This document shows, piece by piece, positions 7,721 through 63,994 of a DNA stretch of 64,000 nt. Position 1 is the stretch's first letter; the number at the start of each line of letters is the position of its first letter. Both the position numbers and the translations under genes were made by a program. The DNA is taken from positions 62,001 through 126,000 of the forward strand of contig JASTWF010000333.1 in assembly GCA_030390025.1 (NCBI GenBank), read 5' to 3'. The notes below the pieces were generated by a model. That model was not told the DNA's origin. It did no database searches and saw only the letters and a program-made list of their open reading frames with translations. The DNA comes from Squalus acanthias (lineage: Eukaryota).

Positions 7721-8190
7721 TGCTGTTCAATGAAGGCTTGGTGTCAGTGATAGCGTGACTGAATAGGCTGGAGAGTGAAGGGAGTACAAGTGTCATGCTT
7801 CATGTTTCCTCATCTCCTGCTTCCTCTTCCCAGTAAAGGCCCTCTATTTGGAGGGATTGCTCCTCAAAAGTGGGGGGAGGATGCAGCTTGGCCTGTTCTC
7901 CTCCCACAGTTTTCCTCAATCTTTTGTTATGTACTGCTTTATTCTACAAAAACAAAGGCATGCATTAGGAACAGGAGTCGGCCATTCAGCCCCTCGAGCC
8001 AGTTCTGCCATTCAATAAGATCATGGCTGATCTGTATCCGAACTCCATCCACCCGCCTTGCCTTCATATCCCTTAATACCTTTGTCTAGCAAAAAATGGA
8101 TCGATCTCAGATTTAAAATTATTAATTGAGCTAGCATCTACTGCTTTTTGTGGGAGCGTTCCACACTTCTACCCCACTTTGTGTAAAGAA

Positions 8191-10921
8191 GGCCGCAATT
8201 TTGCCGGCGCTCAGAGGGCGGGATTGGAGGCAGGTCAGAAATTAAATTCGCAATGATTGACGGCGGGTTCCGAACCCGCCATGATCCCACCTCCACGCAA
8301 ATTTCCCGAGTGTCGAGTCTCCGATTTGCAAACAGACCCGACACCAAGCAGCGGGAAATGGATTAAAGGCACTTAAATGCCTATTAAGTGGTAGTTTGGG
8401 ATTTTCCAGCTTCTGGGTCGGGTTTCACGACGTTCCGACAACATGCCAGGTAAGTGTGGCGTGAACACCAGCGAGCTGGAGACTTCACAGCTGCAACTGC
8501 AGTGTAAAAGCTGCACTCTCAAATCTTGTCATTTAGAAATCTGTGAGGTTGGTGATTGAATAATTTGGGGGCATAATCTGTATTTAGGCTGCAAGTATGT
8601 GTTGTGCACAATAGAGCCATTGTAACCTACATTGCTGGATTTTAAAGGCACACTTACCCTAAACTGTGCCACCTCAAATTGTCAGCACACAGCTGGCAAC
8701 GATGCCAAACCTTCGTTCTACATCAATTTATTACAATATTGTCAAAGAACAGAAACTTTACAAATAAAGCTATCATAACACCCAAGTGAGAACCCTTATG
8801 ATTATTAATGTGACATCTTCCTCTGACACGTGCTTCTACGTTGTGAGACCCTTGTGTCTTCAGCATATGTGAAGGCAGCCTGCTCACTTCCCTGCTGCTC
8901 CTGCTTAGACGCCTTTGGCGGCCGTCCTCTGGTTTTGCGAGCCTTGGAGGGCCCCGCCAAAGTCTGCTCCTCCTGCAGCTGTGCAGGGGCAGACTTGGCC
9001 ATCTCTGTTGGCTCAGGCAGATGTGGCTCTGACCGAGGGCTCGGCAGTGGCAAGGGAGTTTGAGCGCTTGGAGAGGAGACCCCACTTCCTTGTGCTCGAA
9101 CACCACCATCCCTCTCATGGGTCACCCGCACTTCACTGCTAGCAAGTTGCTGGAGAGCACCTTGCTGCACATTGGTGGGGCCATGTGGACCCGTCTCTGT
9201 ACTGACAGTCCTCATAACAGGGACGTCCATGTGCCTCTGGTTCCTCTCCACGATAGATGGCCTTCTATTCTCCATAGCTGACCATCTATCTAGAAGAGCC
9301 ACCATGTTGGCTTGTGTCTGGTGAGTTCGGTCCTCCATGGAGGTTGCCATCCTTTCCATGGCGGCACCTAGATTGCCCATAGCATTCACCACGGCATTGC
9401 TAATGTTTAAGATGGATTCCTCCATTCTCTGCACACCCACAGTGACTATGGAAGCAAACCCAGTCAGAGCCTCCTGCACTTATTCCTGACGCTCCAGCAC
9501 CGCTCTCTTTCTGGATGGCCCCAGGGGCACAGCGTCTACATGCAGCTGAGCAGAGCTAGGACAGCCCTGCGTCCTCCAACGAGGACTCTCCACTGCTGTC
9601 CCTGTCTCCAACATCTGCTCCTGCTCACTTGTGAGCTGTGATACACCAGGTAACAACACTACTCTATCTCGCAAAAAACCCAATGAGGTGTGCGTCTCTG
9701 CGCTGGTGCTGGGTGCGTTGAATGCTGGGGACGCTGCTCCCTCAGAGGCTGGTGGTTCCTCTGAGGAGTGCTACTGCTCTTCCTCCTGGACAGTGGAGAG
9801 CGGGGCTCTTGGTGGTCCTGTGGGGGAGTAAAGGCATGAGTTAGACAAGTGAAGTGTATGTTGCAGACATTGTGCAGATGCTTAGCACTCAAACTCTATG
9901 AGCATCATATCCCATATTAGTCACTCATGAATGCTTAATCAGAGGGTTGGAAATCAATTCTGTCACCAGCTTGCTCTTCTACACCCGTCTCTCCGTCCCC
10001 CACTTCCAGCTCCTCTGCACCTCCGATGATCTCCAGGGCTACCTCCTCAGTGCTTGTTAGGTGCGTCAGGGATGGTGGGCCTCCTCCTGTTCTCACCCTC
10101 TCCCTTTTATTGTGGGCTCTCTTCTCCTGTAATGAGGGACGCAAGTGGAGTTTGAGAGAGATTGATGGAGTGAGTGTAAAGAATGGATGACATAAATGTT
10201 TAGAGGGAGACTATGAAGGAGTGAGGTGCACAAACCAAGTTCCCTCCCTGTGCGTTGTTAGTTGTTGGAATTGCATAAGAGTGTGAGTGGTGCATAGTAA
10301 GATGGTGATGTGATTCTGTACAGAGAAAGAGAGGGATGGGTGAGGGTGCAAGGGATGTTAGAGTGAGTTGCGATGTGTAGGGGAAGGTTGCCAATGCAGA
10401 GCGATGGGGATGAGAAGAGATGGGAGACAGATGGAAGGCAAGTGTGATGTTATACTCACTTTTACTGATCGCAACAGATCATTAAACCTCTTGCGACACT
10501 GCACCCAGGTGCGTATGTAGACCAACCTCGAACTGACCTCCTCAGCAATTTGCAGCCAAGCTGGTATGCTGAGGAGGCCTTCTCCATCTGTCTTCAGGGA
10601 AGAGGACCTCCTTACATCCTCTTACTCCCTCCACAAGAACATGGAGAGAGTCCACATCGAAGCGGGGAGCAGCCTTAGGTTTTTGCGCTGTCATACCTTC
10701 AGGGAACAAAATGGAAATGAATCTGCAGAGGGGACATGGCCCCTTTAAATAATCAGTCCAAAATCGCTTCATCAGATGCGAGCAGCTGACCTGCACCCAG
10801 TAATTGCCTTGGAGAACCCGCAAGTCGGCCTTAACGAGGCCAATCAACGGAAAATTTCAACTGCAGGGCGGCGGGACAGCGAACCCGCCGCCATTCCACC
10901 TCCAGGTGCAAAATCGCAGCC
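8191..10921 (-). mobile_element. Non-autonomous Harbinger carrying only the Myb/SANT gene (2.73 kb)
   Basis: TIRs GGCCGCAATTTTGC / GCAAAATCGCAGCC; 3-bp TSD GAA (8188-8190, 10922-10924); no transposase motifs seen inside. Confidence 0.9.
8805..10694 (-). pseudogene. Three-exon Harbinger Myb/SANT-like DNA-binding protein pseudogene (exons 10694-10460, 10126-9967, 9817-8805)
   Basis: MTAQKPKAAPRF...AWLQIAEEV...TWVQCRKRFNDLLRSVK|gt...cag|EKRAHNKRERVRTGGGPP. Canonical GT-AG junctions in compatible phases; one frameshift in exon 1 and two in-frame stops in exon 3. Confidence 0.85.
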
Positions 10922-11002
10922 GAAGTGTTTCTTAAATGGCCTGGCTCTGATTTTAAGGTTGTGTCCCCTTGTCCTAAAATCCCCCACCAGCAGAAAAAGA
11001 TT

Positions 11003-11891
11003 GGGGGAAAACTTGGATAAGACTTGAAATTGGGTGTGGAGATTGCGGTGCCTGATTAACCCACGGTCGTTCATAGCATTGCAGACAGCAAGTTACATTG
11101 GTGCTGCCTGCTCTTTTAAATTATTTCTGCGTGCAGCCAGCGCTATCCGCGCTGGTCATTGGCTGCACGCATCAGCAAGGGTCCCGATACCACGTGTGTC
11201 TAGCACTATTTAAAGGCAGCCTGCACCTCTTAAAGGGGAGGTGCATTGTGGCTGCAAGAAGTGATGGGAGTTTTTTCAAAACTGAATCAGTGCTGTGATA
11301 CGTTGAGGAATGGCTAAACATGCGAGAGAGCGAGCACCAAGGTTTCCAGACACTGCACTGAAGGCTTTGGTGGAAGAGATGGAAAGGAGGAGGGACGTCC
11401 TGTATCCGCAGTGGGGTAGGAAGCCCTTCAGACAGATGCTCAGGAGGCAGTAGGAACAAGTTACGGCGGAAGTTAATGCCAGGAGTGCTGCTCAAAGAAC
11501 ATGGATGCAGTGCAGGAAGAAGTTTAATGATCTCCACACAAGTTGTCAAGGTGAGTGACTTCATCTTCAAATGGCATATCCTACCAGCTGCACCACTAGC
11601 CTCAGCCACTGCTCAATCCACTGCACCCCCATCACCCATCTACCAACAATCTCTATCAATCAGGACTCAACCCTAACATTCATATACTTCACCTCACACA
11701 CTTAGCACTGTTGCAAGCCTCACACCCACAACTCACAGCTCACACACACTGGCAACTATTCAACCATGACAGCCATATCACCCAAGCAGATTGCACCACA
11801 CTCACTGACATGCTTCCCTCTTTCTTGCAGGAGAGGGTGGTGCATAACAGCAGGCAGCAGCAAATAACTGGAGGAGGACAAGTGTGTCTGC
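11003..11891 (+). mobile_element. Harbinger A, left part (TIR, Myb exon 1 at 11310-11550, start of exon 2 at 11831-11891)
   Basis: TIR GGGGGAAAACTTGG at 11003; MAKHARERAPRFPDTALKALVEE...RTWMQCRKKFNDL|gtgagt; cag|ERVVHNSRQQQITGGGQVCL. Confidence 0.85.
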
Positions 11892-11911
11892 GGCCTAGAA
11901 ATTGGAAAGCG

Positions 11912-12292
11912 CAAAAATACAAGGGGGTAGAAGTTATGCTACAGCTATACAAAGCCTTGGTTGGACCACACCTGGAGTACTGTGTGCAGCTCTGGCCACC
12001 ACACCTCAGGAAGGATATATTGGCCTTGCAGGAAGTGCAGTGTAGGTTTACCAGAATGATATCCAGACTCCAGGGGTTAAATTACGAGGAGAGATTACAC
12101 AAATTAGGGTTGTATTCCCTGGAATTTAGGAGGATAAGTGGTGATTTGATCGAAGTTTTCAAGATATTAAGGGGAACAGGTATGGTAGAGAGAAACTATT
12201 TCTGCTGGTTGGGGATTGTGGATTAAGGGGCATAGTCTAAAAATTAGAGCCAGACCGTTCAGGTTTGAAATTAGGAAACACTTCTACAGGCA
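11912..12292 (+). mobile_element. CR1 LINE ORF2 3' fragment
   Basis: YKGVEVMLQLYKALVGPHLEYCVQLW...EERLHKLGLYSLEFRR; typical CR1 C-terminal region. Confidence 0.9.
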
Positions 12293-13953
12293 AACATAGG
12301 AACATAGGAACAGAAGTAGGCCATTGAGCCCCTCGAGCCTGTTCCACCATTCAATGAGATCATGGCTGATCTGTGAGCTAACTCCAGATACCCACTTTTG
12401 GCCCATATCCCTTAATACCTTTAGTTAACAAAAAGCTATCAATCTCAGATTTAAAATTAACAATTGATCTAGCATCAATTGCCGTTTGCGGAACAGAGTT
12501 CCAAACTTCTACCATCCTTTATGTGTAGAAGTGTATCCTAATTCCATGGTTTTGTATAACTGCAGCATAACTTCTACCCACTTGTATTCTAGTCCTCTAG
12601 TAGAAGGCCAGCATTCCATTAGCCTTTTTGATTATTTTCTGTACCTGTTCATGACATTTTAATGATCTATGTACCTGGACCCCCAAGTATCTTTGGACCT
12701 CCACTAGTTTTAGCTTTTCACCATTTAGAAAGTACCCTGTTCTATCCTTTTTAGATCCAAAGTGGATGACCTCACATTTGCCTACATTGAAATCTATTTG
12801 CCACAGTTTTGCTTAATCTATCAATACCTCTTTGTAACTTTATGCTTTCATCTACACTGCCTACTATGCCACCTATCTTTGTGTCATCAGCAAACTAGGA
12901 TATGTGACTTTCTATGCCATTATCTAAGTCATTAATAAATACTGTGAATAGTTGAGGCCCCAAAACAGATCTCTGTGGATTATCACAAGTCACATCCTGT
13001 CAATTTGAGTACCTGTCCATTATCCCCAGTCTCTGTTTCCTTCCGCTCAGCCAATTTCCTAACCAGGTCAATAATTTGTCTTCAATTCCTTAGTTAACAG
13101 TCTCTTATGAGGGACTTTATCAAATATCTTCTGGAAGTCCATATAAATAACATCCATAGACATTCCCCTGTCCACTACTTTAGTCACCTCTTTAGAAAAT
13201 TTAATCAGGTTTGTCAGGCATGACCTACCTTTCATAAATCAATGTTGGCTCTCTCTGATCGGCTGAAAATTTTCGAGGTGTTCAGTCACCCTATCCTTAA
13301 TTATAAACTCGAATAATTTCCCAACAACAGATGTTGGGCCAACTGGTCTATAATTGCAGGGTTTCCCACTCTCACCATTCTTAAATAGCGGGGTGACATG
13401 TGCAATTTTCCAATCCAAAGGAAAGGTTCCTGAATCGAGAGAACTCTGGAAAATGATAGTTAGGACATCTGCAATGTGTTCACCTATTTCCTTTAAAACC
13501 CTGAGATGGAAACCATCTGGTCCTGGGGATTTGTCACTCTTTAGTGCCATTATTTTCTTCATTACTGTTATTTTGCTTAAGTTAATTTTATTGAGTCCCT
13601 GTCCCTGATTCAATATTAGTTTCCTTAGGATTTCCAGCATGCTGACCGAGGAAAATAGAATATGAGAGTAAACTAGTGAGAGACATAATAACAGACTGTA
13701 AAAGCTTCTATAGGTATGTAAAAAGGAAAAGATTAGCAAAAGTAAATGATGTACGCCATCAGGTCCAGGGGATTTATTGGCTTTCAGTCCCATTAATTGC
13801 TCCAGTATTATTTTTTTTTACAAATACTCATTTCTTTCAATTCCTCATTCTCGCTAGACCCTTGGTTGTCCGCTATTTCCACTATTACAGGCTAAGACAG
13901 GAGAAATTATAATGGGGAATAAGGAACTGGCAGAGAAATTAAACAAATACTTT

Positions 13954-14842
13954 GGGGGAGAAATTCAGTATCGCCCCATTTGGGGCGCAATTATCGACCG
14001 GGCGCAAAGATTAGTGCCTGGTGCTAATTATCGCCACCGACTGCAAACTTGACTTTTATCGCCCCTGGAGGTGATTGGAGCGCTAAATCAGGCGCTTCAC
14101 ACCTGTCTTAAGGTGCAAAGGCCGAGGAGCGAGGCGCTACCTCAGAGCGCTGGCGAAGCTCATGTAATGTCAGTCAGCAATGGAACACACACACAATGGC
14201 ACGGGCCAGTTCTTAAAGGGGATAGTTAATCTTGCTTTCCATCCACATCCTGCTCATTGCAGCCTTGAATCTCGGCCTGGAGAGACCTGCACATCAAATC
14301 TGCTGGAAAGAACAATGGAGAGTACCAGGCAAAGAGCTCAGAGTGCAGCCCCCACAGTCTCTTCTAAATCGATACAAGGAATGGCAAATCAAAATGAACC
14401 TGCAAAGTGCTGCTCAGTACCCAAAACTCCTTCACACAACGTTGAATCTCTCCAGAAGTCTCTCTCTCTCTCAGAATGCGTAGTTCAAAAATGGCACCAA
14501 CAATAAAAGGCAGGAAGCGGTCACCTTTAAATAGCGCTCCCCCTTTCCCTTCATGACTGCAGAACGCTCCCCTCAACCTGTCGTTGCTAGCGTCAAGCAG
14601 TAAGGCAGGAGGCGCCACTCAATATCCGCTCCGGGGCGATACCGGGGCATTGCGCACTCGACTGACGTCACGATCTGCCAGCGCAGGAGATCGTGGCGGT
14701 AGTGTTTAGCGCCGCCGCAAAATGTCTAGTTAATTTCGCGAGCGGTGCAAACTTTGCCGTGCCTGGACGCTAGATGCTTTGTGCCCCATTAGCGCCCTCT
14801 TAAGACGCTAACGGGAGGCGCAACCAACTAAATTTTTCCCCC
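13954..14842. mobile_element. Harbinger-derived MITE, family M1 (889 bp)
   Basis: TIRs GGGGGAGAAATT / AATTTTTCCCCC, TSD TTT; homologous to 29220-30043 and 41418-~41975. Confidence 0.9.
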
Positions 14843-15218
14843 TTTGTGTCTGTCTTCACGCAAGAAGATGCAAAAAACTTCCCGGAAATAATGCACAACC
14901 AAGGGTCTAGCGAGAATGAGGAACTGAAAGAAATGAGTATTTGTAAAAAAATAATACTGGAGCAATTAATGGAACTGAAAGCCTTTAAATCCCCTGGACC
15001 TGATGGCCTACATCCTAGGGTTTTGAAAGAGGTGGCTATAGAGATAGTGGATGCATTGGTTGTCATTTTCCAAAATTCCATAGATTCTAGAACGGTTACC
15101 GAGGATTGGAAGGTAGTAAATGTAACCCCACTATTTAAGAAAGGAGGGAGAGAGAGAACAGGGAACTACAGACCAGTTAGCCTGACATCAGTAGTAGGGA
15201 AAATGCTAGAATCTATTA

Positions 15219-18200
15219 TTTTTTTTTCTTCGTTTATGGGATCAGGGCGTCGCTGGCAAGGCCAGCATTTATTGCCCATCCCTAGTTGCCCTTGAGAAGG
15301 TGATGGTGAGCCGCCTTCTTGAACCGCTGCAGTCCATGTGGTGAAGGTGCTCCCACAGTGCTATTAGGTAGGGAGTTCCAGGATTTTGACCCAGCGACGA
15401 TGAAGGATCGGCAATATACTTCTAAGTCAGGATGGTGTGTGACTTGGAGGGGAACTTGGAGGTGGTGGTGTTCCCATGCGCCTGCTGCCCTTGTCCTTCT
15501 AGGTGGAAGAGGTCGCGGGTTTGGGAGGTGCTGCCAAATAAGCCTTGGCGAGTTGCTGCAGTGCATCTTGTAGATGGTACACACTGCAGCCACTGTGAGC
15601 CGATGGTGGAGGGAGTGAATGTTTAAGGTGGTGGATGGGGAGCCAATCAAGCAGGCTGCTTTGTCCTGGATGGTGTCGAGCTTCTTGAGTGCTGTTGCAG
15701 CTGCACTCATCCAAGCAAGTGGAGAGTATTTCATCACACTCCTTACTTGTGCCTTGTAGATGGTGGAAAGGCTTTGGGGAGTCAGGAGGTGAGACACTCG
15801 CCACAGAATACCTAGCCTCTGACCTGCTCTTGTTGCCACGGTATTTATGTGGCTGGTCCAGTTAAGTTTCTGGTCAATGGTGACCCCCAGGATGTTGATG
15901 GTGGGGATATCACCGATGGTAATGCCGTTGAATGTCATGCGGAGGTGGTTAGACTTTCGCTTGTTGGAGATAATCATTGCCTGCCACTTCTGTGGCGCGA
16001 ATGTTACCTGCCACTTATCAGCCCAAGCCTGAATGTCGTCCAGGTCTTGTTGCATGCGGGCATGGACTGCTTCATTATCTGAGGAGCTGCGAATGGCACT
16101 GAACATTGTGCAGTCATCAGCGAACATCCCCACTTTTGACCTTATGTTGGAGGGAAGGTCGTTGATGAAGCAGCTGAAGATGGTTGGGCCTAGGACACTG
16201 CCCTGAGGAACTCCTGCAGCAATGTTCTGGGGCTGTGATGATTGACCTTCAACCACCACAACCATCTTCCTTTGTGCCAGGTATGACTCCAGCCAGTGGA
16301 ACGTTTTCCACCCGATTCCCATTTACTTCAGTTTTACTAGGGCTCCTTGATGCCACACTCGGTCAAATGCTGCTTTGATGTCAAGGGCTGTCACTCTCAC
16401 CTCACCTCTGGAATTCAGCTCCTTTGTCCATGTTTGGACCAAGGCTGTAATGAGGTTGGGAGCCGAGTGGTCTTGGCGGAACCCAAACTGGGCATCAGTG
16501 AGCAGGTTATTAGTGAGTAAGTGCCGCTTGATAGCACTGTTGATGACACCTTCCATCACTTTGCTGATGATTGAGAGTAGACTGATGGGGCGGTAATTGG
16601 CCGGATTGGATTTGTCCTGCTTTTTGTGGACAGGACATACCTGGACAGTTTTCCACATTGTCGGATAGATGCCAGTGTTGTAGCTGTACTGGAACAGCTT
16701 GGCTAGAGGCGCAGCTAGTTCTGGAGCACAAATCTTCAGCAAGATAGCCGGGATGTTGTCGGGGCCCATAGCCTTTGCTGTATCCAGTGCGCTCAGCCGT
16801 TTCTTGATATCACATGGAGTGAATCAAATTGGTTGAAGACTGGCTTCTGTGATAGTGGGGACCTCGGGAGTAGGCCAATATGGATCATCCACTTGGCACT
16901 TCTGACTGATTTTGGTTGCAAACGCTTTAGCCTTGTTTTTTGCACTCACGTGCTGGGCTCCACCATCATTGAGGATGGGGATATTCATGGAGACTCCTCC
17001 TCCCGTTAGTTGTTTAATGGTCCACCACCATTCAAGACTGGATGTAGCAGGACTACAGAGCCCTGTCTATAGCATGCTGCTTCCGTTTTTTAGCATGCAT
17101 GTAGTCCTGTGTTGCAGCTTCCCCAGGTTGGCACCTCATTTTTACATACGCCTGGTGCTGCTCCCGGCATGCTCCTCTACACTCCTTATTGAACCAGGGT
17201 TGGTCCCCTGGCTTGATGGTAATGGTAGAGTGAAGGATATGCTGGGCCATGAGGTTACAGATTGTGGTGGAATACAATTCTGCTGCTGCTGATGGCCCAC
17301 AGCGCCTCATGGATGCCCAGTTTTGAGCTGCTAGATCTGTTCTGAATCTATCCCATTGAGCACAGTGGTAGTGCCACCCAACACGATGGAGGGTGTCCTC
17401 AGTGTGAAGACGGGACTACGTCTCCACAATGGCTGTGCAGTGGTCACTGCTATCAATGCTGTCATGGACAGATGCATCTGCGACAGGTAGATTGATGAGG
17501 ATGAGGTCAAGTAGGTTTTTCCATCATGTTGGTTCTCTCACCACCTGTCGCAGGCCCAGACTGGCAGTTCTGTCCTTCAGGACTAGGCCAGTTCGGTCAG
17601 CAGTGGTGCTACCGAGCCACTCTTGGTGATGGACATTGAAGTCCCCCACCCAGAGTACATTCTGTGCCCTTGCTACTCTCAGTGCTTCTTCCAAGTGGTG
17701 TTCAACATGGTGGAGTACTGATTCATCAGCTGAGGGAGGGCGGTAGGTGCTAATCAGGAGGAGGTTTCCTTGCCCATGCTTGACCTGAAGCCATGAGAGT
17801 TCATGGGGTCCAGAGTCAATGTTGAGGACTCCCAGGGCCACTCCTTCCTGACTGTATAGCACTGTGCCACCACCCCTGGTGGGTCTGTCCTGCCAGTGGG
17901 ACAGGACATACCCAGGGATGGTGATGGAGGAGTCTGGGACATTGGCTGAAAGGTATGATTCTGTGAGTATGACTATCTCAGGCTGTTGCTTGACTAGTCT
18001 GTGGGACAGCTCTCCCAATTTTGGCACAAGTCCCCAGATGTTGGTGAGGAGGACTTTGCAGGGTCGACTGGGCTGGGTGTGCTGTTGCCGTGTCCATAGC
18101 CGGGGCCGAGGTCGATGCCAGGTGGTCCGTCCGCTTTCATTCTTATTATGTTTTGTAGCGGTTAGTTACAACTGAGATGACTTTGACTTGCTAGGCCATT

Positions 18201-18460
18201 TCAGAGGGCAGTTAAGAGTTAACCACATTGCTGTGGGTCTGGAGTCACATATAGTCCAGACCAGGTAAGGACGGCAGATTTCCTTCCCTATGACAATTCG
18301 ATAGTTTCTTGGTCACCATTACTGATACTAGCTTTTTATTCCAGATTTATTTAATTAACTGAATTTAAATTCCCCAGCTGCTGTGGTGGGATTTGAACTC
18401 ATGTCTCTGGATCATTAGTCTAGGTCTCTGAATTACTAACCCAGCAACATTACCACTACC
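15219..18460 (-). mobile_element. Near full-length single-ORF CR1/L2-group LINE (family B; APE + RT) with tRNA-like 5' head
   Basis: APE KVLLTNIWGLVPKLGEL...IVILTES...VGDFNVHH; RT NYRPISLLS, ALDIKAAFDRVWH, GVPQGSVLGP, FADD; 3' AATAAA and A-tail at ~15219-15227; a few stops. Confidence 0.92.
18388..18460 (-). promoter_or_regulatory. tRNA-derived internal Pol III promoter-like head (partial A box, B box)
   Basis: Minus strand GGTAGTGGTAATG (18460-18448) and GAGTTCAAATCCC (18400-18388), matching the B-box consensus GTTCRANNC. Confidence 0.75.
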
Positions 18461-20629
18461 ATAAGGACGTGGTAACAGGGCACTTATAAAATAATAAGAG
18501 GATTGGGCAGAGTCAACACGGATATATGAAAGGGAAATCTGTTAAAGTTTTTTGAGGTTGTAGCTAGCAGAATAGATAAGGGGGAACCAGGGGATGTGGT
18601 GTATTTGGATTTTCAGAAGGCATTCGATAAGGTGCCACACAAGAGGTTATTAAACAAAATTAGGACTCATGGGATTGGGGGTAATATACTAGCATGGATT
18701 GAGGATTGGTTAACACACAGAAAACAGAGTAGGAATAAACGGGTCATTTTCGAGTTGGCAGGCTGTAAATAGTGGGGTACCGCAAGGATCAGTGCTAGTG
18801 CCTCAGCTATTCACAATCTACACCAATGATTTGGATGAGGGGACCAAATGTAATATATCCAGGTTTACTGATGCAAGGAGGCTACAAGGGGATATAGACA
18901 GGCTAAGTGAGTGGGCAAGAACATGGCAAATGGAATATAATGGTAGGAAAAATAGAAAAGCAGAGTATTTTTTAAATGGTGAGAGATTGGGAAAAGTTGG
19001 TGTTCAGAGGTACCTGGATGTCCTTGTGCACGAATCACTAAAAGTTAACATGCAGGTACAGCAAGCAATTAGGAAAGCAAATGATATGTTGGCCTTTATT
19101 ACAAGAGGATTTGAGTAATGAGTAAAGACGTCTTACTGCAATAATATAGGGCCCTGGTGAGACCACGCCTGGAGTATTGTGTACAGTTTTGGTCTCCTTA
19201 ACTAAGGAAGGATATACTTGCCATAGAGGGAGTGCAACGAAGGTTCTCCAGACTGGTTCCTGGGATGGGGGGATTGTCCTATGAGGACGGATTGAGTTGA
19301 CTAGCCCTATATTCTCTAGAGTTTAGAAGAATGAGAGGTGATTGCATTGAAGCATACAAAATTCTTACAGGGCTTGACAGGGTAGATGCAGGGAGGATGT
19401 TTCCCCTGGCTGGGGAGTCTAGAACTAGGGGTCACAGTCTCAGAATAAGGGGTCGGCCATTTAGGACTGAGATGAGGAGAAATTTCTTCACTCAGAGGGT
19501 GGTGAATCTTTAGAATTCTCTACCCCAGAGGGCTGTGGAGGCTCAGTCGTTGAGTATATTCAAGACAGAGATCGATGGATTTTTGAATATTAAGGGATTT
19601 AAGGGATATGGGGATAGTGCAGGAAAGTGGAGCTGAAGTAGAAGATCAGCCTTGATCTTATTGAATGGCGGAACAGGCTTGAAGGACCAAATGGTCTACT
19701 CCTGCTCCTATTTCTTATGTTCTCTTCCTCTAATGTAAATACAGACGCAAAATAACTATTCAACATGTCCGCCATTTCCTTATTGTCATTGACAATATTA
19801 CCGTTATCAGTTTTCAAGGGGCCAACATTGCTCCTGACCACCCTCTTTTTCCTTATATAATTGTAAGAAATCTTTGTGTTGATTTTGAGATCCCTTGCAA
19901 GTTTCTTTTCATACTCCCTTTTTGTAGCTCTTACTGACTTTTTTGTGACCCTTTGCTGTTCTTTGTATCTTTCCCATTTGCCAAGATCATTGCTATTTTT
20001 TGCATTTTTGTATGCTTTTTCTTTTAGTTTTATGTTGTCTCTTACCTCTTTAGTCATCCATGACTGTTTTTTTGACAAGTAGAGCTCTTGCCCCTAAGGA
20101 TTATAATCTGGTGCTGTATCACATTAAATTCTTTTTAGAATATCTCCCACTGATCTTCTGTCATTTACCCATTAACAGATTTGCCCAGTTTACTGTGGAC
20201 AGTCTCTGTCTCATCGCATTGAAGTCAGCCTTACCTAAATCTAGAATCTTAGTAGCTGTTTCATGTTTCTCCCTTTCAAACACTACTTTGAACTCAATCA
20301 TGTTAAGATCGCTATTAGATCAATGTTCACGCACAGTTAGGCTGTTAACTAAATCTGGCTCATTATATGATGACACCAAGCATTGATGCTTTGCTTTTTT
20401 ATTCCCAGCTGTCAGCACACTTTTAGCTGTGTTTTCATTACTGATGGTGCATTCCTTTGCTAGTTATTTGCCATTTACCTCAATAAGTTCTGTAATATAA
20501 CTGAAAGGGCTGGATTTTCCTCCACTATCCCAACCCCAAATCAGGCAGAATAGTGTCAGAATTGACAGTAAAGTGGAGAGGTGAAGCCTACTAGCACCTC
20601 CACACCCTGATCTCGATTTTCCTCCTTTC

Positions 20630-20828
20630 TGCCCCCAGAAAGGATATATTGGCCTTAAAAGGAGTACAGCGCAGATTCACCAGAATGTTTTGAAGGCTCT
20701 AAGGGTTAACTTATGAGAAGAGATTACATAAACTAGGCTTGTATTCACTAGAATATAGAAGGTAAAGGGTTGATCTGATTGAGGGTTTTAGCATTTTGAA
20801 AGGAATTGTTAGGGTAGATAGAGAGAAA
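20630..20828 (+). mobile_element. CR1 fragment, inverted continuation of the CR1 ending at 11002
   Basis: Reverse complement tttctctctatctaccct... follows ...ccagcagaaaaagatt (11002), matching the contiguous sequence in the CR1 at ~24918-24950. Confidence 0.8.
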
Positions 20829-23800
20829 GGAGGAGAAATTGGGTTCTGTAGTGCCCGTTTTTAGGCGCTAATCAGCCTCCTAAAGGTCGAGAATTGGGTC
20901 CTACATTGGTGTGCACACTTTCGACGGGAAGTGCGCTGGACAGTAGTTTGCGTGTGCACACACCACTGGCAGCATGCAGAGCAGGTAGATTGTGACGTCA
21001 ATCAGTGCACAACGCTGATTTGACACCAGCAGTACCATTTTTGAACACCACGCTCCAGCCTACGCCCACTCTTAACCTCCCACAGCTAAACACGCATTCA
21101 ATGGCATGAAGGACCCCCCACCTGCACTGCTTAAAGGGATGATGAACTACTTACAGATTAGTTGCTGGTTTATTTCTCCTGGCTGCTGGTACAATTCTAC
21201 ATGTTTTTGGAGCTTTCTTATACTTGTCTGAAGTTTCAATACTCTACAGGGAGTGGTGTGGCTGGTGCTCAAGTACTTTTTTGGTGGTTTAAAAACTTGT
21301 GCTGAAACAAATTACTTCCAGACGTGGGTGGCCTGGTAGGCCTTCCTCTTGGAATTGAGCATGACTGGAAAAATGAAGAGAGGCCACGCAGAGCAGGACA
21401 AGGGAGGAGGAGGAGAAGGGCTCTCAGCAGGAGGCCATATCCGCCCAGGGTCTTCAGGAAGCAATTCTCTTAACTAAACTACAGTGAGGAACAGTGCATG
21501 AGGTGTTTTCGCTTCAATAACGAGGTTGTGGCTGAAATCTGCCAACTGCTGCAGCCACAACTGGAACCTCAAAGCAGGGCAAGGACCGCATTGCCTGTGG
21601 CTGTCAAGGGGACCATGTCTCTTAACGTTAATGCGTCTGGCTCCATCCAGGCTGCTGCTGAAGATATAAGCAACATCTTGCAGTTTGCAGTATACTGCTG
21701 CATAAGGGAGGTCACTGAGACTCTCTATACACAGCGAGACAGCTTCATCTCATTCCCTCTTGCCAGAGACAAGCAGGTGGAGCGAGCATGAGTGTTTGTT
21801 GGATTGCAGGCTTCCCCATGGTGCAGGGTGCCATTGACTGCATGTACATTGCTTTGCGTGTGCCTCATGTGAACTCGGCCATTTTCATGAACCAAAAGGG
21901 ATTCCACTCCCTCAATGTGCAGCTGGCATGCGACCACAGGCAGCACATCATGCAGGTGAATGCCCGTTATCTTGGCAGTAGTCATGATTCCTTCATTCTG
22001 CAGCAGTCTTCTATGCCACATGTATTAGACCCACCACGGCAAGTCAAAGGCTGGTACTGGGCAACAAGGTTTATCTACCATAACTCTGGTCTGGGACATT
22101 ATAGAGCACACCATCGGCATCCTCAAGCAACGCTTCTGCTGCCTGGACCACTCTGGAGGAGCCCTACAGTACTTAGCTGAGCAGGTATGCTGCATGCTAC
22201 ACAACTTGGTCATTATGAGGGAACAACCCTTGCCACCACTTATCAGGAGAGAAGCTGCAGAGCAGGAGCACGAGGAAGAGGAGGAGGAGGAAGTGGAGAA
22301 GGAGCAAGTGCAACAGGAAGTGGAGGAACATGAAGAGGAAGGGAGAATACAACGTAGACAGCCCCTTTCTGCCCAGGGTCTATGTGATTAAATATTTCAT
22401 GAGCGGTACTAGTAACCTCAAATACACCTCCCCATTCACCAACAGTCCCACACTCCACACCTTTCCTCTATGACTGACCATGACATCGTAGTCTTTCCAA
22501 CAACACAAAAATAAAAGCCACCAGAAAATGTACATTCCAATCCAAATTTATAAATTAAATCATGACATAATGCATACAAAAATAAACTAATCACCCTTGT
22601 GCATTTCCTTAGTGCCTCTTTCCTGTGCCTTTGCCTCTCCTAGTGCTCCTTCGAGGTGCTTCCCCAATGTCTGCAGCATGGCTGACCTTGAATTGAGAAG
22701 ACTGCAGATGGCCTTGGAGGGCAACCTCGAGCAACTCTGGACCTAAAAGGCCCGGCTTCAGACTGTATCATCTCAGCCTGGGGTGCAGCAGTCTGGGCTG
22801 GCTGGCTGACAGGCAATAGCAAAGGCACTGGTAGAGATGCAGGAGTGGGAGTACAAATGCAGTCATCCGGAGAGAGGACAGCAGGTTTGTGCTCCATAGT
22901 GCCACTGCCACACTCCCGGGGCGGTGCCTCAACAATACTAGTAACCTGTTGGAGAACAGATTGATGGACTGCTGTGATGCCCTGGAAAACCCCTTTGAAC
23001 ACTGGTATCCAGAGCCATGATGGCAGCAGTCTGAGCTTCCATGCAGCCCTCAGACCTTTGGTAGAAGCTGCTTGTGCTGCAGTGGACGCTGTGACATCGG
23101 CTTCAGATGCTGCATCATGCTGGGTTCCACAGGTGTGCTGATGGAGCTGACCACCTGTTCCATGTTGGAAAGGATGGGGTCCAAGCTCTGCACAAAGCCC
23201 TGTGCCAAGTTGGTGCTGGACTCCTCCATGCTCCTTGACATTGAGTGCAGGCTTTCTGGCAGGCTTTCCAGTGCACCAAGCATTTGGGTGTGTACACCCA
23301 TCAGCCTTCTTCTATAGCTTGGCCCATCGATGATGTCCTCATCTGACTCCTCTGCAGCAGAACTAGTGTGTGACCTCGCCCTCCGGTGAGCTGGCACCTG
23401 CGCTATCCTTTCCTCCTGCCCTGGCTCCTGCCATCTTGTGCCCAGTGTCTCACCATGTCCAGGGCACTCCTCTATCCTAGCCTTTAAAATACTGGCAGTT
23501 CAGTATCTGAGCTGGTAAGATTGAGTGAAGGTGTCTCTTCATCTTCACTGTCTTCTTCCTGTTCCTCCACTGACTGGGCAGGTTCCAGTTCTTGGATATC
23601 TGAAATGAAAAAGGGACAAGGATTGGGTTGTGGTGAGGGGAGAGGAGAAAGTAAGAAGTGTGTGCTTACACCATCGGAAGCTTCTAAGTCAGAAGAGATT
23701 GAGGAATGAGGGAGAAGTGGGATGAGAGGAGGAGGATTAGGTATGCGGATACTCTCATCATCAATTGCTTCAGCGCTGCCAGTGGCCATTCCCATGATGG

Positions 23801-23832
23801 CCAGTACTGTCTCCTCCATTGGTGTAAAACAT
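20829..23832. mobile_element. Harbinger A, right part (TIR, transposase on +, Myb exons 2b-3 on -), inverted relative to its left part
   Basis: TIR GGAGGAGAAATTGG at 20829; convergent genes; minus-strand MEETVLAIMG... and ...RRRLMGVHTQMLGALESLPESL. Confidence 0.85.
21324..22412 (+). pseudogene. Harbinger (HARBI1-like) DDE transposase pseudogene
   Basis: RPYPPRVFR, GFPMVQGAIDCMYI, NQKGFHSLNVQLACD, ARYLGSSHDSFIL, CCMLHNL and an acidic tail; stops and frameshifts present. Confidence 0.9.
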
Positions 23833-23835
23833 GCA

Positions 23836-24598
23836 GGCCGGGAAATTGAACCTGTTTGCGCCGGCCATTAAGGCCGGTTTGGAAGAAAAAATAGCGGCCG
23901 CCTCGCTTCCTCCCACTTCCGGCGCAGAATGCAGCGGCCGCCATTTTGGGCAGGCCGGCAGCGCTGCCGTTGCCTGCACTCGCTCCAGATATTTAGATGA
24001 GCCAGGTTGTGATGTCAATTGGTGTGCAACGCTGCATTGACGCACGACCTGGTATTTTGGACATCACCCCTCCTTTTAACGGCCTCTCCAAAGCACGCAT
24101 GGCAGAACGTGCATGCAGCAGTATGACAGACCCCCTACCAGCGCTTCTTAAAGGGACACAAGCAACTTTCAGGTAAGTTTAGATTTTTGTTTTTGGACTG
24201 GTTTCTTTACATTTTATTGGTGTAGTGGCTTGGTGCAATACAATTAAAAAGTTGTTAAATTGTGAAGGGAGTGCAGGGAGTGCTGCTGGATGTTTGCAAG
24301 GCTTTAGCTCTTAAAGGAAGGTCTCTGAGAACACCAATTGCTCCCAGTCCTGGGGGTTCTAGTTTCAGTCCAGCTTGGGCTGCAGCATGACAGGGAGATG
24401 GAGCAGAGGCAGCAAAGGGGACAAGCTGCTCGCAGAGGGAGGAGGAAGAGGAGGAGAAGGAAGAGGAAGAAGCAGAAGAGGAGAAAGCAGAAGAGGAGGA
24501 AGCGGAAGGAAGGATGCAACCCAAACAGCCCCTTTCTGGCCGGGATATCCGAGATCCAATCATTCACCTGCGGTACCAGTGAACACAACTCTAATTAG
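23836..24598 (+). mobile_element. Harbinger B (inserted into Harbinger A Myb exon 2); internally deleted transposase; other TIR at 11892
   Basis: TIR GGCCGGGAAATTG at 23836 vs GGCCTAGAAATTG at 11892; TSD TGC; transposase N-terminus (VQLGLQHDREME...RGRR) abuts the C-terminus (QPLSGRDIRDPIIHLRYQ*). Confidence 0.8.
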
Positions 24599-24599
24599 A

Positions 24600-26405
24600 A
24601 ACTTAGGAACAGAGGAACATAGGAACAGGAGTAGGCCATTCAGCCCCTCAAGCCTGTTCCGCCATTCAATGAGATCATGGCTGATCTGCAACCTAACTCC
24701 ATATACCCGCCTTTGGCCCATATCCTTTAATACCTTTGGTTAACAAAGAGCTATCAATCTCAGATTTAAAATTAACAATTGATCTAGCATCAATTGCCAT
24801 TTGCAGAAGAGAGTTCCAAATTTCTACCACCCTTTGTGCGTAGAAATGTTTCCTAATTTCCCTCCTGAAAGGTCTGGCTCTAATTTTTAGACTATGCCTC
24901 CAGTTCTAGAATCCCCAACCAGCGGAAATAGTTTCTCTCTATCTACCCTATCTGTTCCCCTTAATATCTTCAAAACTTCAATCAGATCATCCCTTAACCT
25001 TCTAAATTCGAGGGAATACAAACTTAATTTGTGTCATCTCTCCTTGTAACTTAACCCTTGAAGTCTAGGTATCATTCTGGTAAATCTATGCTGCACTCCC
25101 TCCAAGGCCAATATATCCTTCCTAAGGTGTGATGCCCAGAACTGCTCATTGTACTCCAGGTGTGATTTAACCAGGGCTTTGTATAGCTGCAGCATAACTT
25201 CTACCCCCTTGTACTCTTGTCACTCTAGATATAAAGGCCAGCATTCCATTAGCCTTTTTGATTATTTTCTGTACCTGTTCATGACATTTTAATGATCTAT
25301 GTACCCTCAAGTCTCTTTGGACCTCCACTGTTTTTAGCTTTTCACCATTTAGACCTTTGTAGGTCCAAAGTGGATGACCTCACATTTTCCTACATTGAAA
25401 TCCATCTGCCACAGTTTTACCCATTCACTTAATCTATCAATATCCCTTTGTAATTTTATGCTTTCATCTACATGCCTACAATGCCACCTATCTTTGTGTC
25501 GTCGTCAAATTTGGATATATGACTTTCTATGCTATCATCTAAGTCATTAATAAATACTGTGAATAGTTGAGGCCCCAACACAGATCCCTGCGGGACACCA
25601 CTAGCCACATCCTGCCAATTAGAGAACCTACCCATTATCCCTATTCTCTGTCTCCTGTCGTTCAGCCAATTTCCTAATCAGGTCCATAATTTGCCTTCAA
25701 TTCCATACCTTAGTTAACAGTCTCTTATGTGAGACTTTATCAAATGCCTTCTGGAAGTCCATATAAATAATATCCATAGACATTCCCCTATCCACTACTT
25801 TAGTCACCTCCTCAAAAAATTCAAGCAGGTTTGTCAGGCATGACCTACCCTTCACAAATCCATGCTGGCTCTCTCTGATCAACTGGAAATTTTAAGGTGT
25901 TCAGTCACCCTATCCTTAATTATACACTCTAATAATTTCCCGACAACAGATGTTAGGTTAACTGGTCTATAATTCCCTTGTATCCCTCTTTCACCATTCT
26001 TAAATAGTGGAGTGACATGCGCAATTTTCCAATTTAAAGGAATTGTACCCTGAATGGGGAGAACTTTGGAAGATTATAATTAGGGCATCTGCAATGTACT
26101 CACCTACTTCGTTTAAAACCCAGGGATGGAAACCATCTGGTCCTGGCGATTTGTCACTCTTTAGAGCCATTATTAGGGTGGTAGATGCTTGGAACTCCCT
26201 TCCGCAAATGGCAATTGATGCTAGATCAATTGTTAATTTTAAATTCGAGATTGATAGATTTTTGTTAACTAAAGGTATTAAAGGATATGGGGCAAAGGCG
26301 GGTATATGGAGTTAGGTCGGAGATCAGCCATGATCTCATTGAATGGCGGAACAGGCTTGAGGGGCTAAATGGCCTACTCCTGTTACTATGTTCCTATGTA
26401 CCTAT
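24600..26405. mobile_element. CR1 LINE pieces: 24600-26174 (-) and 26175-~26405 (+)
   Basis: Minus QHGFVKGRSCLTNLLEFFEEV...DFQKAFDKV with tail at 24600; plus RVVDAWNSLP...GIKGYG with tail ttcctatg. Confidence 0.9.
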
Positions 26406-27195
26406 TTTCAAATTTCAGCGCTGGAGCAATTGTGATTAATAATTCTGGATATGAATACACATCTGCACAGATACGATCAGAAGAGGTCATGGTAATTTCA
26501 CCGACATGAGATGCATTTAATGTGAATGATTTATGTCTTCACACTGTGCATTTGCAAACAAATGAAAAGAGGTTTTACCAAACATTTTTTGGTGATGACT
26601 GCACCCCTTTTAACACCTTCTAGTCCAACCTACAGGAAAAAATATGACGAGATGAAAAGCTGTAAATAACCTTTACTGAACCAATTTTTACTCACTTTAT
26701 AGTCTGGCAGTATATGCTGGGCAGTCCCCATCAATCTCTCTCCTGTGCTTTAATACAGCCAGAGGTCATTGAATTTATGGTTTTATTCAGCTTATAAGAC
26801 ATTTATTGGCTTGTACAGTCCAGACAACCAAACATGAGATACCTAATTTAACTCACTCCCTTCAATTTGCTTAGCCATTTACTGTAACATTGCAGACACA
26901 CAAGAGAAAAACTGAAACAGTAAATAAATGGTGAGTTGGGTTGAGCAGTTGCTCCCGGTACTCTGAATTTTGTACTTACTTGACATACATTTAAGCAAAA
27001 GGAAAACAAATTTGAGCAAAATTGTTCAAAAAGTAAGAAATATTCCCAAATATTTCTAACGAAGGAGCTTCGCCTGCCAAGAGAGCATGTTGGGAATTCT
27101 GGCGTGCGCCTGATCTGTGCTCCTGGCCGTGAAGTTGTGCATTAGATGTGAGATTTTGTAAAGTTGCCCCTTTAGTACCACCATAAAGCCACTAC

Positions 27196-27299
27196 GGGGA
27201 AGACTTCCGCTGCTCGCAGTTTATGGTGAATTTGTAAATTTGTTCTTTATGCATGCACAAGACTTTGCTATAAACCGTGAACAGTGCAAATCTTCCACC
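27196..27299. mobile_element. Very short MITE-like inverted repeat (~104 bp)
   Basis: ~35-bp imperfect IR ggggaagacttccgctgctcgcagtttatgg / ctataaaccgtgaacagtgcaaatcttccacc; TAC on both flanks. Confidence 0.6.
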
Positions 27300-27957
27300 T
27301 ACAGGCTTGGGATATTTGTGATAGAGGGGAAAATGGGCAAAAAGAAGCCTGAAGACCAACGTATATATTGAAAACTGCTTCTATCCTAAATTCCCATTAG
27401 GGTTAAAAGACCAGAAATTGCACAAATCCCAGGAGACAGTTCTAGCTTAAAACCTGGGAGCAGGGCGTCTGATTTAGGGCAGAACATGGATCCACAGTGC
27501 CCTCAGTGGGATGTATGTTTCCTGAGAGCAGGCATAGGTCCTGTTCTGGTCCAAATGAAGGCCCCAGCAAAGAAAAGCAATGACAATGGATCCCAGCGGA
27601 ATCCATCACCGTTATTATGTTACCTCTCTGTTCCCAGAGGAGAATCACAAAACAAATTACAGTATGACTGTTTCTACAGGCTATACACTTTGACAACCGC
27701 TGCCTCCATGGATTGGGTGCACGAGTTACACCAGTACGGACGTGGGTACACTTCCCCATTATTTAAATAACCTTGTCCCTGGGATTTAGGGCGGAGTCAG
27801 CAGCAAGCCAATGAGGAAAGTGGAATTTCCGTCCCACTGCACTTCTGCGGGTGCAATAGTGTCACATGAAATGGAGACCGACCATCCTAGATCCAAATTT
27901 ACCTGCAAAGTGGCCACAATGAGCTGCTCACTGCAGCCCGGCAGCATGTTTCCAGGT

Positions 27958-40585: not shown

Positions 40586-40834
40586 TGTCGGGAGGGGGAT
40601 CGTGAAGAAGTTAAGTTGAGCGTTAAGCTTTTAATTTTTATTGTAGTTTTCCTTGTGGGCCAGGAGGAACAGGAGTGCTGTTCCGGACCCCACAAAGGAA
40701 GCCTTGGGCCTCTCTTAACACGGGCTTCCCCCAATCGCATCCACCCCCCTTCCCCCTCTTACCACTTAACTGACTGCTGGGGACCGATCTCACGGGTCCC
40801 CGGCTACGGCCTCCTGTCTGCAATCTTCCTTAAC

Positions 40835-59176: not shown

Positions 59177-59254
59177 TGCTGCTGGAAATATTACCGGTTC
59201 GACATTCAGCCTATTTATATGATATTACTCTCCCCACTATTTTAGTCGAGGTGT

Positions 59255-59897: not shown

Positions 59898-59999
59898 GGC
59901 TTGACCATTGAACGACTCGGCCGACGGTCCCTTCTCATCAGTGGATTTAGTTTCATGTCACTGTTCTTTGGGCTACTCACAATTTCGCTTAATCTACAG
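59898..59999 (+). CDS. SLC2A9: Internal exon (102 bp, phase 0/0) of class II facilitated glucose/urate transporter GLUT9
   Basis: ttttcag|[34 protein letters not shown]|gtaaat; contains the sugar-porter GRR motif and resembles GLUT9 [34 protein letters not shown] (recalled). A paralogue is not excluded. Confidence 0.88.
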
Positions 60000-63918: not shown

Positions 63919-63994
63919 AACAAAGTTTCCTGGATGTCTTATGTGAGCGTGTTCTCCATTCTTGGTGTAATAGCATCATTCTGCATTGGTCCAG
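63919..63994 (+). CDS. SLC2A9: Next GLUT9 exon (76 bp, phase 0/1)
   Basis: ttctacag|NKVSWMSYVSVFSILGVIASFCIGP-G|gtaaag; in frame with the previous exon; resembles GLUT9 [26 protein letters not shown] (recalled). Confidence 0.88.

What the first reader, a model, noticed from the sequence alone, without database searches (positions are those of the whole stretch)
11912..25213. ~13 kb intronic inversion between inverted CR1 copies, shown by split elements
Seen: (1) Myb exon 2 breaks at ...GGGQVCL (+, 11891) and resumes as HVL...MEETVLAI on the minus strand at 23832, with TSD TGC and the two Harbinger B TIRs now in direct orientation (11892, 23836). (2) Harbinger A TIRs (11003, 20829) are also in direct orientation, and the CR1 they interrupted continues on the opposite strand at 20828. 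(3) + CR1 11912-12292 is homologous to - CR1 ~24835-25213. Inference: ectopic recombination between those two segments flipped the interval. Undoing it restores a ~3.9 kb two-gene Harbinger.
Basis: partly seen in the sequence, partly recalled or inferred. Interest (0 to 1): 0.7.

Follow-up and report, generated by a model that had tools for sequence, protein, structure and literature searches.

The report
Repeat-driven inversion in a shark intron
A 12-14 kb stretch of dead jumping genes inside a shark urate-transporter intron was flipped long ago by exchanges between copies of one retrotransposon; the flip is real and probably harmless, of a known kind, but its junctions leave a small chance that two simultaneous insertions caused it.

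Summary
The inversion is real. A Myb-like exon, two Harbinger transposons and their host CR1 are each cut, with the halves on opposite strands; undoing one flip restores a 3,893-bp two-gene Harbinger. The stretch lies upstream of two exons of shark SLC2A9, so it is intronic by inference. A single crossover between 11912-12292 and 24835-25213 cannot produce that from plain copies. Rivals: a twin-primed CR1 plus one crossover (0.2); two synchronous CR1 insertions joined in trans (0.12), whose layout matches a published tumour L1 inversion; an insertion intermediate recombining with an existing copy (0.1); misassembly (0.04). Sequence-age tests and public contigs did not separate these. A known kind of event, with no evident effect on the gene.

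The parts
7945..8190 (-). 3' end of the old host CR1 (hA), beyond Harbinger C
   Evidence: CR1 positions 1330-1567, 84% to the reference copy; TTC duplicated around Harbinger C
8191..10921 (-). Harbinger C (Myb-like exons), outside the inversion; uncut control element
   Evidence: inverted termini and GAA/GAA duplication; Myb-like hits
10922..11002 (-). middle piece of host CR1 hA
   Evidence: CR1 positions 1240-1310
11003..11891 (+). Harbinger A, 5' half: left terminus, Myb-like exon 1 (11310-11550, one stop codon), start of exon 2 (11831-11891)
   Evidence: PF13873 Myb_DNA-bind_5, E 4.3e-08 with X at the stop; splice signals; P0014 residues 10-33
11889..11891 (+). TGC target duplication of Harbinger B, left copy
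11892..11911 (+). Harbinger B left terminus plus 6 bases
   Evidence: matches 23836 in direct orientation
11912..12294 (+). X': tail-less CR1 fragment, CR1 positions 956 to 1336-1342 (left bridge)
   Evidence: 325 of 376 to 25219-24840; base-by-base register at its end
12293..13640 (-). M: same-subfamily CR1, tail at 12293 abutting X' (2 shared bases), internal loss of CR1 positions 1005-1316 at 12543|12544
13650..19722 (+). CR1 of another subfamily inserted backwards into M/N, itself holding a short Harbinger-type element (13954-14842) and a second LINE (15220-18462); passenger, and a local precedent for antisense nesting
   Evidence: family contigs join 15219 to 18462
19723..20371 (-). N: 5' continuation of M
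   Evidence: ends at position 841 and M starts at 860 of a common reference
20633..20828 (+). 5' piece of host CR1 hA, now on the opposite strand to its continuation
   Evidence: CR1 positions 1051-1243
20829..23832 (.). Harbinger A, 3' half, flipped: right terminus at 20829, transposase remnant (+, about 21300-22420), Myb-like 3' exons (-, 23832-22594)
   Evidence: PF13359 DDE_Tnp_4, E 1.2e-10; P0014 and P0015 hits
23833..23835 (-). TGC target duplication of Harbinger B, right copy
23836..24592 (-). rest of Harbinger B: a deleted derivative with both ends of a transposase gene and no Myb-like gene
   Evidence: aligns to Harbinger A at 22421-22245 and 21384-20978
24593..26174 (-). A-X-B: 5'-truncated CR1, positions 1-1567 plus tail, seamless throughout (right bridge, first arm)
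26175..26414 (+). B'': CR1 3' fragment starting at position 1342, with tail, joined head to head to A-X-B without shared bases (right bridge, second arm)
   Evidence: 221 of 240 to 24833-24593; junction
59898..59999 (+). host gene SLC2A9 (GLUT9) coding exon
   Evidence: PDB hits only to SLC2A9, E 1.1e-07; shark SLC2A9 proteins; AG/GT ends
63919..63994 (+). next SLC2A9 coding exon
   Evidence: tblastn E about 1e-09; AG/GT ends

Best explanation
An old, probably neutral inversion of 12-14 kb in a long intron of shark SLC2A9, made by homologous (ectopic) exchange among copies of one CR1 subfamily. Shown: the flip of the core (13640-24592) and the layout of both bridges. Inferred: (1) a 1,567-bp CR1 inserted backwards into a sister copy at CR1 position 1342, which explains why X' ends where B'' begins and why a CR1 tail abuts X'; (2) this made a close inverted repeat; (3) one crossover joined an arm of it to a third copy about 13 kb away and flipped the interval, and a second crossover between the two arms flipped the short loop. 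The later loss of 312 bp from M removed most of the arm that faced X'.
For: Four split elements restored by one flip. Undoing two homologous flips by path J or K leaves only plain and nested CR1 copies. X' end and B'' start agree within 0-6 nt; chance about 13 in 1567. The tail at 12293 is then simply the invader's own 3' junction, with 2 shared bases. The same locus shows a CR1 nested backwards in M/N with a loss of about 11-19 nt. Path K fits the rough age pattern: X' more changed than X (29:18), M more than A (56:33, p 0.019), private changes M 11, B'' 8, B 5 of 204 columns. M's deletion (1005-1316) lies inside the span of X' (956-1342). Close inverted repeats are depleted by deletions in the human genome (PMC3215922, abstract); repeat-to-repeat inversions of this size are documented (PMC2603318, passages). 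5' inversion was seen almost only with L1 in cell assays, not with ZfL2-1 (PMC4245944, passages).
Against: It needs two crossovers at one locus, neither of which is located: a search for a switch point in X/X' gave permutation p 0.215. No target duplication longer than 1 nt at the proposed nest site, whereas 3-5 bp is the cited peak for CR1/L2. Path J predicts B'' older than M's 3' end; the counts are 8 and 11 (heterogeneity p 0.12). The weight given to nesting over twin priming rests on my estimate of how rarely a CR1 lands exactly on another's tail, not on a count. No ancestral allele was seen.
Confidence: 0.5

Rival explanations
1. Twin priming plus one crossover. A CR1 inserted at the tail of M with its 5' 1,342 bp inverted; a 612-bp CR1 sat in Harbinger B; one later crossover between X' and X flipped 13.3 kb.
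For: Only one recombination is needed. The X' end/B'' start register is the twin-priming signature (10.1101/2024.08.27.596794 section 4). Best fit to the age counts (heterogeneity p 0.80), with a weak hint of a switch at CR1 1043/1051.
Against: Needs a twin-primed CR1 that also landed exactly on a sister copy's tail. The inverted arm would be six times the tail-primed arm (1,342 vs 225), whereas in L1 the tail-primed arm averages 2.6 times longer. The switch point is not significant (p 0.215). 5' inversions were nearly confined to L1 in assays.
Confidence: 0.2
2. Synchronous insertion. Two CR1 insertions ran at the same time 13 kb apart, one ordinary (A-X-B, primed in Harbinger B) and one twin-primed (B'' and X', at M's tail); their new DNA ends were joined in trans, which inverted 11912-26174 in one step with no later recombination.
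For: The layout is the one described for the tumour inversion PD0307a: one bridge of two 5'-truncated LINEs head to head with two tails, the other a tail-less fragment whose 3' end matches the 5' end of one of them (section 9). One event; the junction-level undo restores all elements. Arm lengths 387 and 225 are nearer to L1 twin-priming proportions. Joining of two L1 intermediates has been shown in reporter cells (10.1101/2025.09.17.676864 section 8). Harbinger B lacks everything between base 20 and the transposase end, which could be a loss at the target.
Against: Both copies must be of one age, yet X'+B'' carry 39 derived changes against 22 in X+B (6 sites unresolved; p 0.040), though the three-way count in the 3' end alone is 8 vs 5 (p 0.58) and the outgroups are distant (60-84%). 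Needs twin priming by a CR1 and a landing on a tail. No matching target duplications could be read at either site. The same end state follows from recombination of standing copies.
Confidence: 0.12
3. Mixed route: the new DNA of an ongoing CR1 insertion invaded a standing sister copy 13 kb away and the crossover flipped the interval, followed by a flip or deletion in the resulting palindrome.
For: Homology-dependent recombination of L1 insertion intermediates is shown in cells (abstract). It could tie the missing left part of Harbinger B and the deletion in M to one unstable palindrome (inference).
Against: Worked through on paper, it does not give the present left bridge without a further flip and a deletion; no simpler than the best explanation. 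Not simulated.
Confidence: 0.1
4. Misassembly: the genome has the ancestral orientation and the assembler crossed over between inverted CR1 copies.
For: No read or contig among those listed spans either bridge; short repeats of a high-copy family flank the segment.
Against: The window has no N; X and X' differ at 51 of 376 sites with a longest shared run of 28 bases; X' end, M tail and B'' start form junctions that a single false join would not create from plain copies.
Confidence: 0.04

Closest known systems
Retrotransposon recombination-mediated inversions (Alu-Alu and L1-L1) between human and chimpanzee (PMC2603318; passages read)
   Same: Inversion bounded by oppositely oriented copies of one retrotransposon family; size within the reported range (166 bp to 81 kb; more than half of the L1 cases above 10 kb); flanks swapped between the copies.
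   Different: CR1 in a shark; three or four copies take part, not two; the chimeric crossover point could not be shown here; the ancestral state is read from split Harbingers, not from an outgroup genome.
Reciprocal inversion by synchronous L1 insertions, tumour PD0307a (Zumalave et al., 10.1101/2024.08.27.596794; sections 4 part 1, 8 part 1 and 9 read)
   Same: Same bridge layout: two 5'-truncated LINEs head to head with two tails; a tail-less fragment at the other end whose 3' end matches the 5' end of one of them.
   Different: Germline, old, 14 kb instead of 2.67 Mb, CR1 instead of L1; no readable target heteroduplications; a standing sister copy's tail lies at the second junction, which opens the nested-insertion route that does not exist in the tumour case.
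Twin-primed (5'-inverted) L1 insertions (Ostertag and Kazazian 2001, seen only as cited)
   Same: After undoing one flip, an inverted 5' arm and a sense 3' arm meet in register within 0-6 nt.
   Different: CR1 clade; no target duplication seen; arm proportions reversed; an antisense nest plus one flip gives the same picture.
PIF/Harbinger transposons (PMC9179366; passages read)
   Same: Terminal inverted repeats, 3-bp duplication, DDE transposase and Myb-like gene.
   Different: Dead copy with stops and frameshifts; termini about 13-14 bp rather than the 25-50 bp cited; duplications here vary (TGC, GAA, AAA, TTA, TTT).

Membership tests
Retrotransposon recombination-mediated inversion (NAHR) | Oppositely oriented homologous copies at both ends of the flipped segment | tested here: met
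   X'/X 325 of 376; M 3' end/B'' about 90%
Retrotransposon recombination-mediated inversion (NAHR) | Flanks exchanged between the two ends; undoing the flip restores them | tested here: met
   Harbinger A and B termini, TGC duplication, Myb exon and host CR1 restored
Retrotransposon recombination-mediated inversion (NAHR) | Breakpoint copies are chimeras with a crossover point | tested here: inconclusive
   best switch at CR1 1043/1051, permutation p 0.215; no subfamily copies could be fetched
Retrotransposon recombination-mediated inversion (NAHR) | Ancestral allele with both copies in place before the flip | tested here: inconclusive
   contigs of four runs were swamped by repeats; no listed piece spans a bridge
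Synchronous LINE insertion-mediated inversion | One bridge of two 5'-truncated LINEs head to head with two tails | tested here: met
   24593-26174 (-) and 26175-26414 (+)
Synchronous LINE insertion-mediated inversion | Other bridge a tail-less fragment whose 3' end matches the 5' end of one LINE of the first bridge | tested here: met
   X' ends at 1336-1342, B'' starts at 1342
Synchronous LINE insertion-mediated inversion | Target duplications split between the two bridges | tested here: inconclusive
   none readable in Harbinger B; at the other site any duplication would lie within tail repeats
Synchronous LINE insertion-mediated inversion | Both insertions of the same age | tested here: inconclusive
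   39:22 derived changes, p 0.040, but 8:5, p 0.58, in the three-way count
Synchronous LINE insertion-mediated inversion | No intermediate state with the insertions but without the inversion | not testable with these tools
   needs orthologous long sequences of relatives
Twin-primed LINE insertion | Inverted and sense arms meet in register | tested here: met
Twin-primed LINE insertion | One target duplication around the whole insert; microhomology at the inner junction | tested here: inconclusive
   no shared base at 26174|26175, 2 shared bases at 12293-12294, duplication not separable from tail repeats
PIF/Harbinger (element A) | DDE transposase gene | tested here: met
   PF13359, E 1.2e-10
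PIF/Harbinger (element A) | Myb-like second gene | tested here: met
   PF13873, E 4.3e-08
PIF/Harbinger (element A) | Terminal inverted repeats and 3-bp target duplication | tested here: met
   termini 11 of 14 alike; duplication 2 of 3 for A, 3 of 3 for B and for uncut neighbours
CR1 clade LINE | Reverse transcriptase that groups with canonical CR1 in a tree | not tested

The most novel reading that the evidence does not exclude
A fossil germline inversion made in one step by two synchronous CR1 insertions, one of them twin-primed, joined in trans: the mechanism described in 2024-2026 for somatic L1 in tumours and cultured cells, here by a non-L1 LINE in a shark lineage and kept over evolutionary time. 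If such bridges are common, part of what is filed as repeat-to-repeat recombination in vertebrate genomes would be insertion-time rearrangement, and a genome-wide search for this two-bridge signature would test it.
Probability: 0.12. Interest if true: 0.72.

Novelty: new member of a known kind. Interest (0 to 1): 0.36.

Why it matters
As it stands, little: a well-documented but ordinary repeat-mediated inversion of dead elements in an intron, with both visible SLC2A9 exons intact and more than 33 kb away. Its use is as a worked case: one end state (two-tail bridge plus tail-less fragment in register) can be reached by nested insertion with two flips, by twin priming with one flip, or by synchronous insertion, so the signature alone does not prove the tumour-type mechanism, and breakpoints read from the best-matching pair of repeats can be wrong. 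If relatives show only empty or fully inverted alleles, it would be a first germline, non-L1 case of insertion-time inversion among the papers my searches returned.

Tried and rejected
No whole genome is held for this window, so subfamily copies could not be gathered. Exact scans for two conserved CR1 words found nothing in metagenome contigs or viral contigs. A protein search with the X' translation gave 47 hits of 101 candidates, none above 70% identity, too distant to type subfamilies. Laying contigs of 4 of the 24 listed runs (X1, X19, X22, X6) was swamped by repeat copies (over 600,000 records a run, 32 pieces listed): none of the listed pieces crosses 11911|11912, 12292|12293, 24592|24593 or 26174|26175, which says nothing for or against the orientation; parts without listed cover are no evidence. 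The contig of organism I that starts at 26328 shows a CR1 3' end before the unique flank but cannot tell B'' from M's own end. A switch-point test in X/X' was not significant; codon-position counts (13 silent, 26 replacement in X/X') showed mostly neutral decay and gave no subfamily signal. Considered on paper and dropped: two separate Harbinger copies in opposite orientation (the halves do not overlap, share one TGC duplication and are contiguous in P0014); X'+B'' as one plain insert moved by two non-homologous inversions (needs breakpoints to fall exactly on old junctions twice); the 13.9-kb segment 12293-26174 as one retrotransposed read-through copy (needs loss of the source and re-entry at the same place; the Myb intron is retained); X' as M's own excised piece (does not explain the register with B''). 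Earlier findings of the scan held nothing for this place or for these words together.


Full report
1. Observation. The Myb-like exon 2 of Harbinger A stops at 11891 on the + strand after GGGQVCL and goes on at 23832 on the - strand; TGC stands at both cut ends, and the two Harbinger B termini (11892, 23836) point the same way. HVL and TPMEETVLAI are one base out of frame. P0014, an unnamed-function protein of another shark, matches 11819-11890 (+) with residues 10-33 and 23499-22730 (-) with residues 103-365, and its residues 34-43 read HIHIPLEETV where the window reads HVL.PMEETV: the halves are one gene. The Harbinger A termini (11003, 20829) are also direct, and the CR1 that A had entered runs to position 1243 at 20828 (+) and continues from 1240 at 11002 (-). 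A carries a DDE_Tnp_4 transposase remnant and a Myb_DNA-bind_5 domain; restored, it is 3,893 bp. Uncut neighbours show the expected inverted termini and 3-bp duplications, so the direct orientation of A and B is the exception. X' (11912-12287, +) matches 25219-24840 (-) at 325 of 376 bases.

2. Setting. The exon at 59898-59999 matches only SLC2A9 among solved structures and shark SLC2A9 proteins in the protein collection (13 hits of 33 candidates). Six of these 13 proteins were run against the window: two exons were found (59898-59999, 63919-63994) and no other hit better than E 0.45. The first 346 or so residues are absent from the window, so the inversion lies in an intron longer than 59 kb if the upstream exons lie left of the window; this is inferred, not seen. 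The organism is a shark; I did not pursue the species.

3. CR1 positions below count from 26174 (= 1) down the - strand. The right end holds two CR1 copies head to head, each with a tail: A-X-B (26174-24593, -, positions 1-1567) and B'' (26175-26414, +, from position 1342). The left end holds X' (positions 956 to 1336-1342, no tail), joined directly to the tail of a third copy, M (12293-13640, -), which has lost positions 1005-1316 and continues as N (19723-20371) beyond a CR1 of another subfamily nested backwards in it. X' thus ends where B'' begins, within 0-6 bases; by chance about 13 in 1567. Any account must explain this register and the tail at 12293.

4. Histories. I reversed segments in silico and listed the CR1 pieces. 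All of the following restore both Harbingers. (b) Undoing one more flip between M and A (path J) gives a host CR1 with a sister copy inserted backwards at 1342. (c) Undoing M 3' end x B'' and then a flip between the two 3' ends (path K) gives the same nest inside Harbinger B and a plain M at the right end; here X' and X never recombined with each other. (d) Reversing 11912-26174 at the junctions gives A-X-B in Harbinger B and a twin-primed X'+B'' behind M: the product expected if both insertions ran together and were joined in trans. The breakpoints are therefore not unique: the core 13640-24592 is flipped in every history; the left end lies between 11912 and 13554 and the right end between 24840 and 26414.

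5. Weighing them. [quoted passage not shown] Related work shows such joins in cells (10.1101/2024.12.14.628481, passages; 10.1101/2025.09.17.676864, abstract and section 8). That was my leading reading (55%). Histories (a) and (d) both need twin priming by a CR1, which cell assays found almost only for L1 and not for ZfL2-1 (PMC4245944, passages), and both need the insert to land exactly on a sister copy's tail; none of the other seven tails that the motif scan listed is followed by the inverted end of a sister copy in this way, as far as the 75 bases printed show. Histories (b) and (c) need neither: the tail at 12293 is the invader's own junction, and backwards nesting is seen in M/N itself. 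Their cost is a second crossover, between close inverted arms; close inverted Alu pairs are depleted in the human genome, in verified cases by deletion (PMC3215922, abstract), and M's deletion falls inside the span of X'. The size of these priors is my estimate.

6. Age tests. With distant copies of the window as outgroups (60-84% alike, plus M where it overlaps), X' has 29 derived changes against 18 in X (4 unresolved), B'' 10 against 4 in B (2 unresolved), and M 56 against 33 in A (18 unresolved). The pooled 39:22 departs from equal age at p 0.040 (a test chosen after seeing the counts), which counts mildly against (d); the three-way count over 204 columns is 11 (M), 8 (B''), 5 (B), 1 unresolved, and 8:5 is not significant. 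Path J fits less well (p 0.12) than twin priming (p 0.80); path K fits the order of all counts, which I judged by eye and did not test. None of this decides.

7. Public reads. Twenty-four runs hold parts of 20300-27900; four were laid on 10000-27900. In the unique flank right of 26415 the contigs differ from the window by 6 of about 1,527 bases (X1, possibly the source sample), 66 of 1,525 (X19, organism G) and 110 of 1,560 (X22, organism I). Low-depth contigs of organism I cross 11002|11003, 20828|20829 and 23835|23836, so Harbinger A and B were in place before that lineage parted. No listed piece crosses a bridge, so the orientation in reads and in relatives is untested. Misassembly is unlikely: the longest run shared by X and X' is 28 bases, and the junctions are of a kind that one false join would not make.

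8. Comparison with what is known. Inversions by recombination between oppositely oriented retrotransposon copies are established: 49 cases between human and chimpanzee, 166 bp to 81 kb (PMC2603318, passages). This locus works like them and meets two of four defining features, with two inconclusive. It also meets both layout features of synchronous-insertion inversions, but the features that would set it apart were inconclusive or out of reach. My searches (mostly seen as listings, with passages of PMC5389967, PMC4245944, PMC13320814 and PMC12350158) returned no report of twin priming by CR1 or of a germline inversion by synchronous LINE insertion; the library lacks most subscription papers, and I did not see the supplements of the preprints, which hold further inversion cases. 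The label CR1 was not tested by a tree (PMC13343379, passages, notes several CR1-group lineages in sharks).

9. Verdict. Real inversion (about 0.95), old, intronic by inference, no sign of effect on SLC2A9. A new member of a known kind; interest 0.36, rising to about 0.7 if relatives show only empty or fully inverted alleles.

Noticed in passing
window 8191-10921, 11003-23832, 13954-14842, 29220-30043, 32241-33980: Several distinct Harbinger-type families, with varied 3-bp duplications (GAA, TGC, TTT, TTA, AAA), in one shark intron. PMC9179366 reports Harbingers absent from elephant shark and asks for other cartilaginous fish to be checked; one search (listing only) did not settle whether this has since been described.
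   Followed up: partly
window 13748-13884: A 137-bp inverted copy (92%) of 14884-15014 inside the + strand CR1 at 13650-19722; family contigs skip it, so it is private to this copy: a templated insertion or a small nested piece.
   Followed up: no
window 12543|12544: M has lost CR1 positions 1005-1316, almost exactly the part that would pair with the adjacent inverted X' (956-1342); 1-2 shared bases at the join. Looks like removal of one arm of a close inverted repeat.
   Followed up: partly
window 11892-11911 and 23836-24592: Harbinger B keeps only 20 bases at its left end before the transposase stop region; the Myb-like gene and left arm are missing. Family trait or loss at this site is open.
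   Followed up: partly
window 7945-8190, 10922-11002, 12543, 12294, 26175: CR1 positions 1316-1342 collect several unrelated breaks: the Harbinger C insertion (about 1330), the end of M's deletion (1316), the end of X' and the start of B'' (1342). If this is a favoured site, the chance figure for the X'/B'' register is too low.
   Followed up: no
window 40758-40841: Another head-to-head pair of CR1 pieces (38437-40758 - and 40841-41414 +).
   Followed up: no
window 2739-3600: A reading frame that I recall as GIY-YIG-like (3064-3516, -; no Pfam hit) between 77-bp inverted ends; possibly a Penelope-type piece.
   Followed up: no
window 15220-18462, 34948-36491, 51413-51613, 57515-59178: Four young copies (90-95% alike) of one LINE family, all on the - strand, antisense to SLC2A9.
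   Followed up: no
window 49526-49562 and 62814-62850: A 37-bp perfect inverted match between two related non-autonomous elements; the copy at 62814-62850 is itself a short palindrome-like stretch.
   Followed up: no
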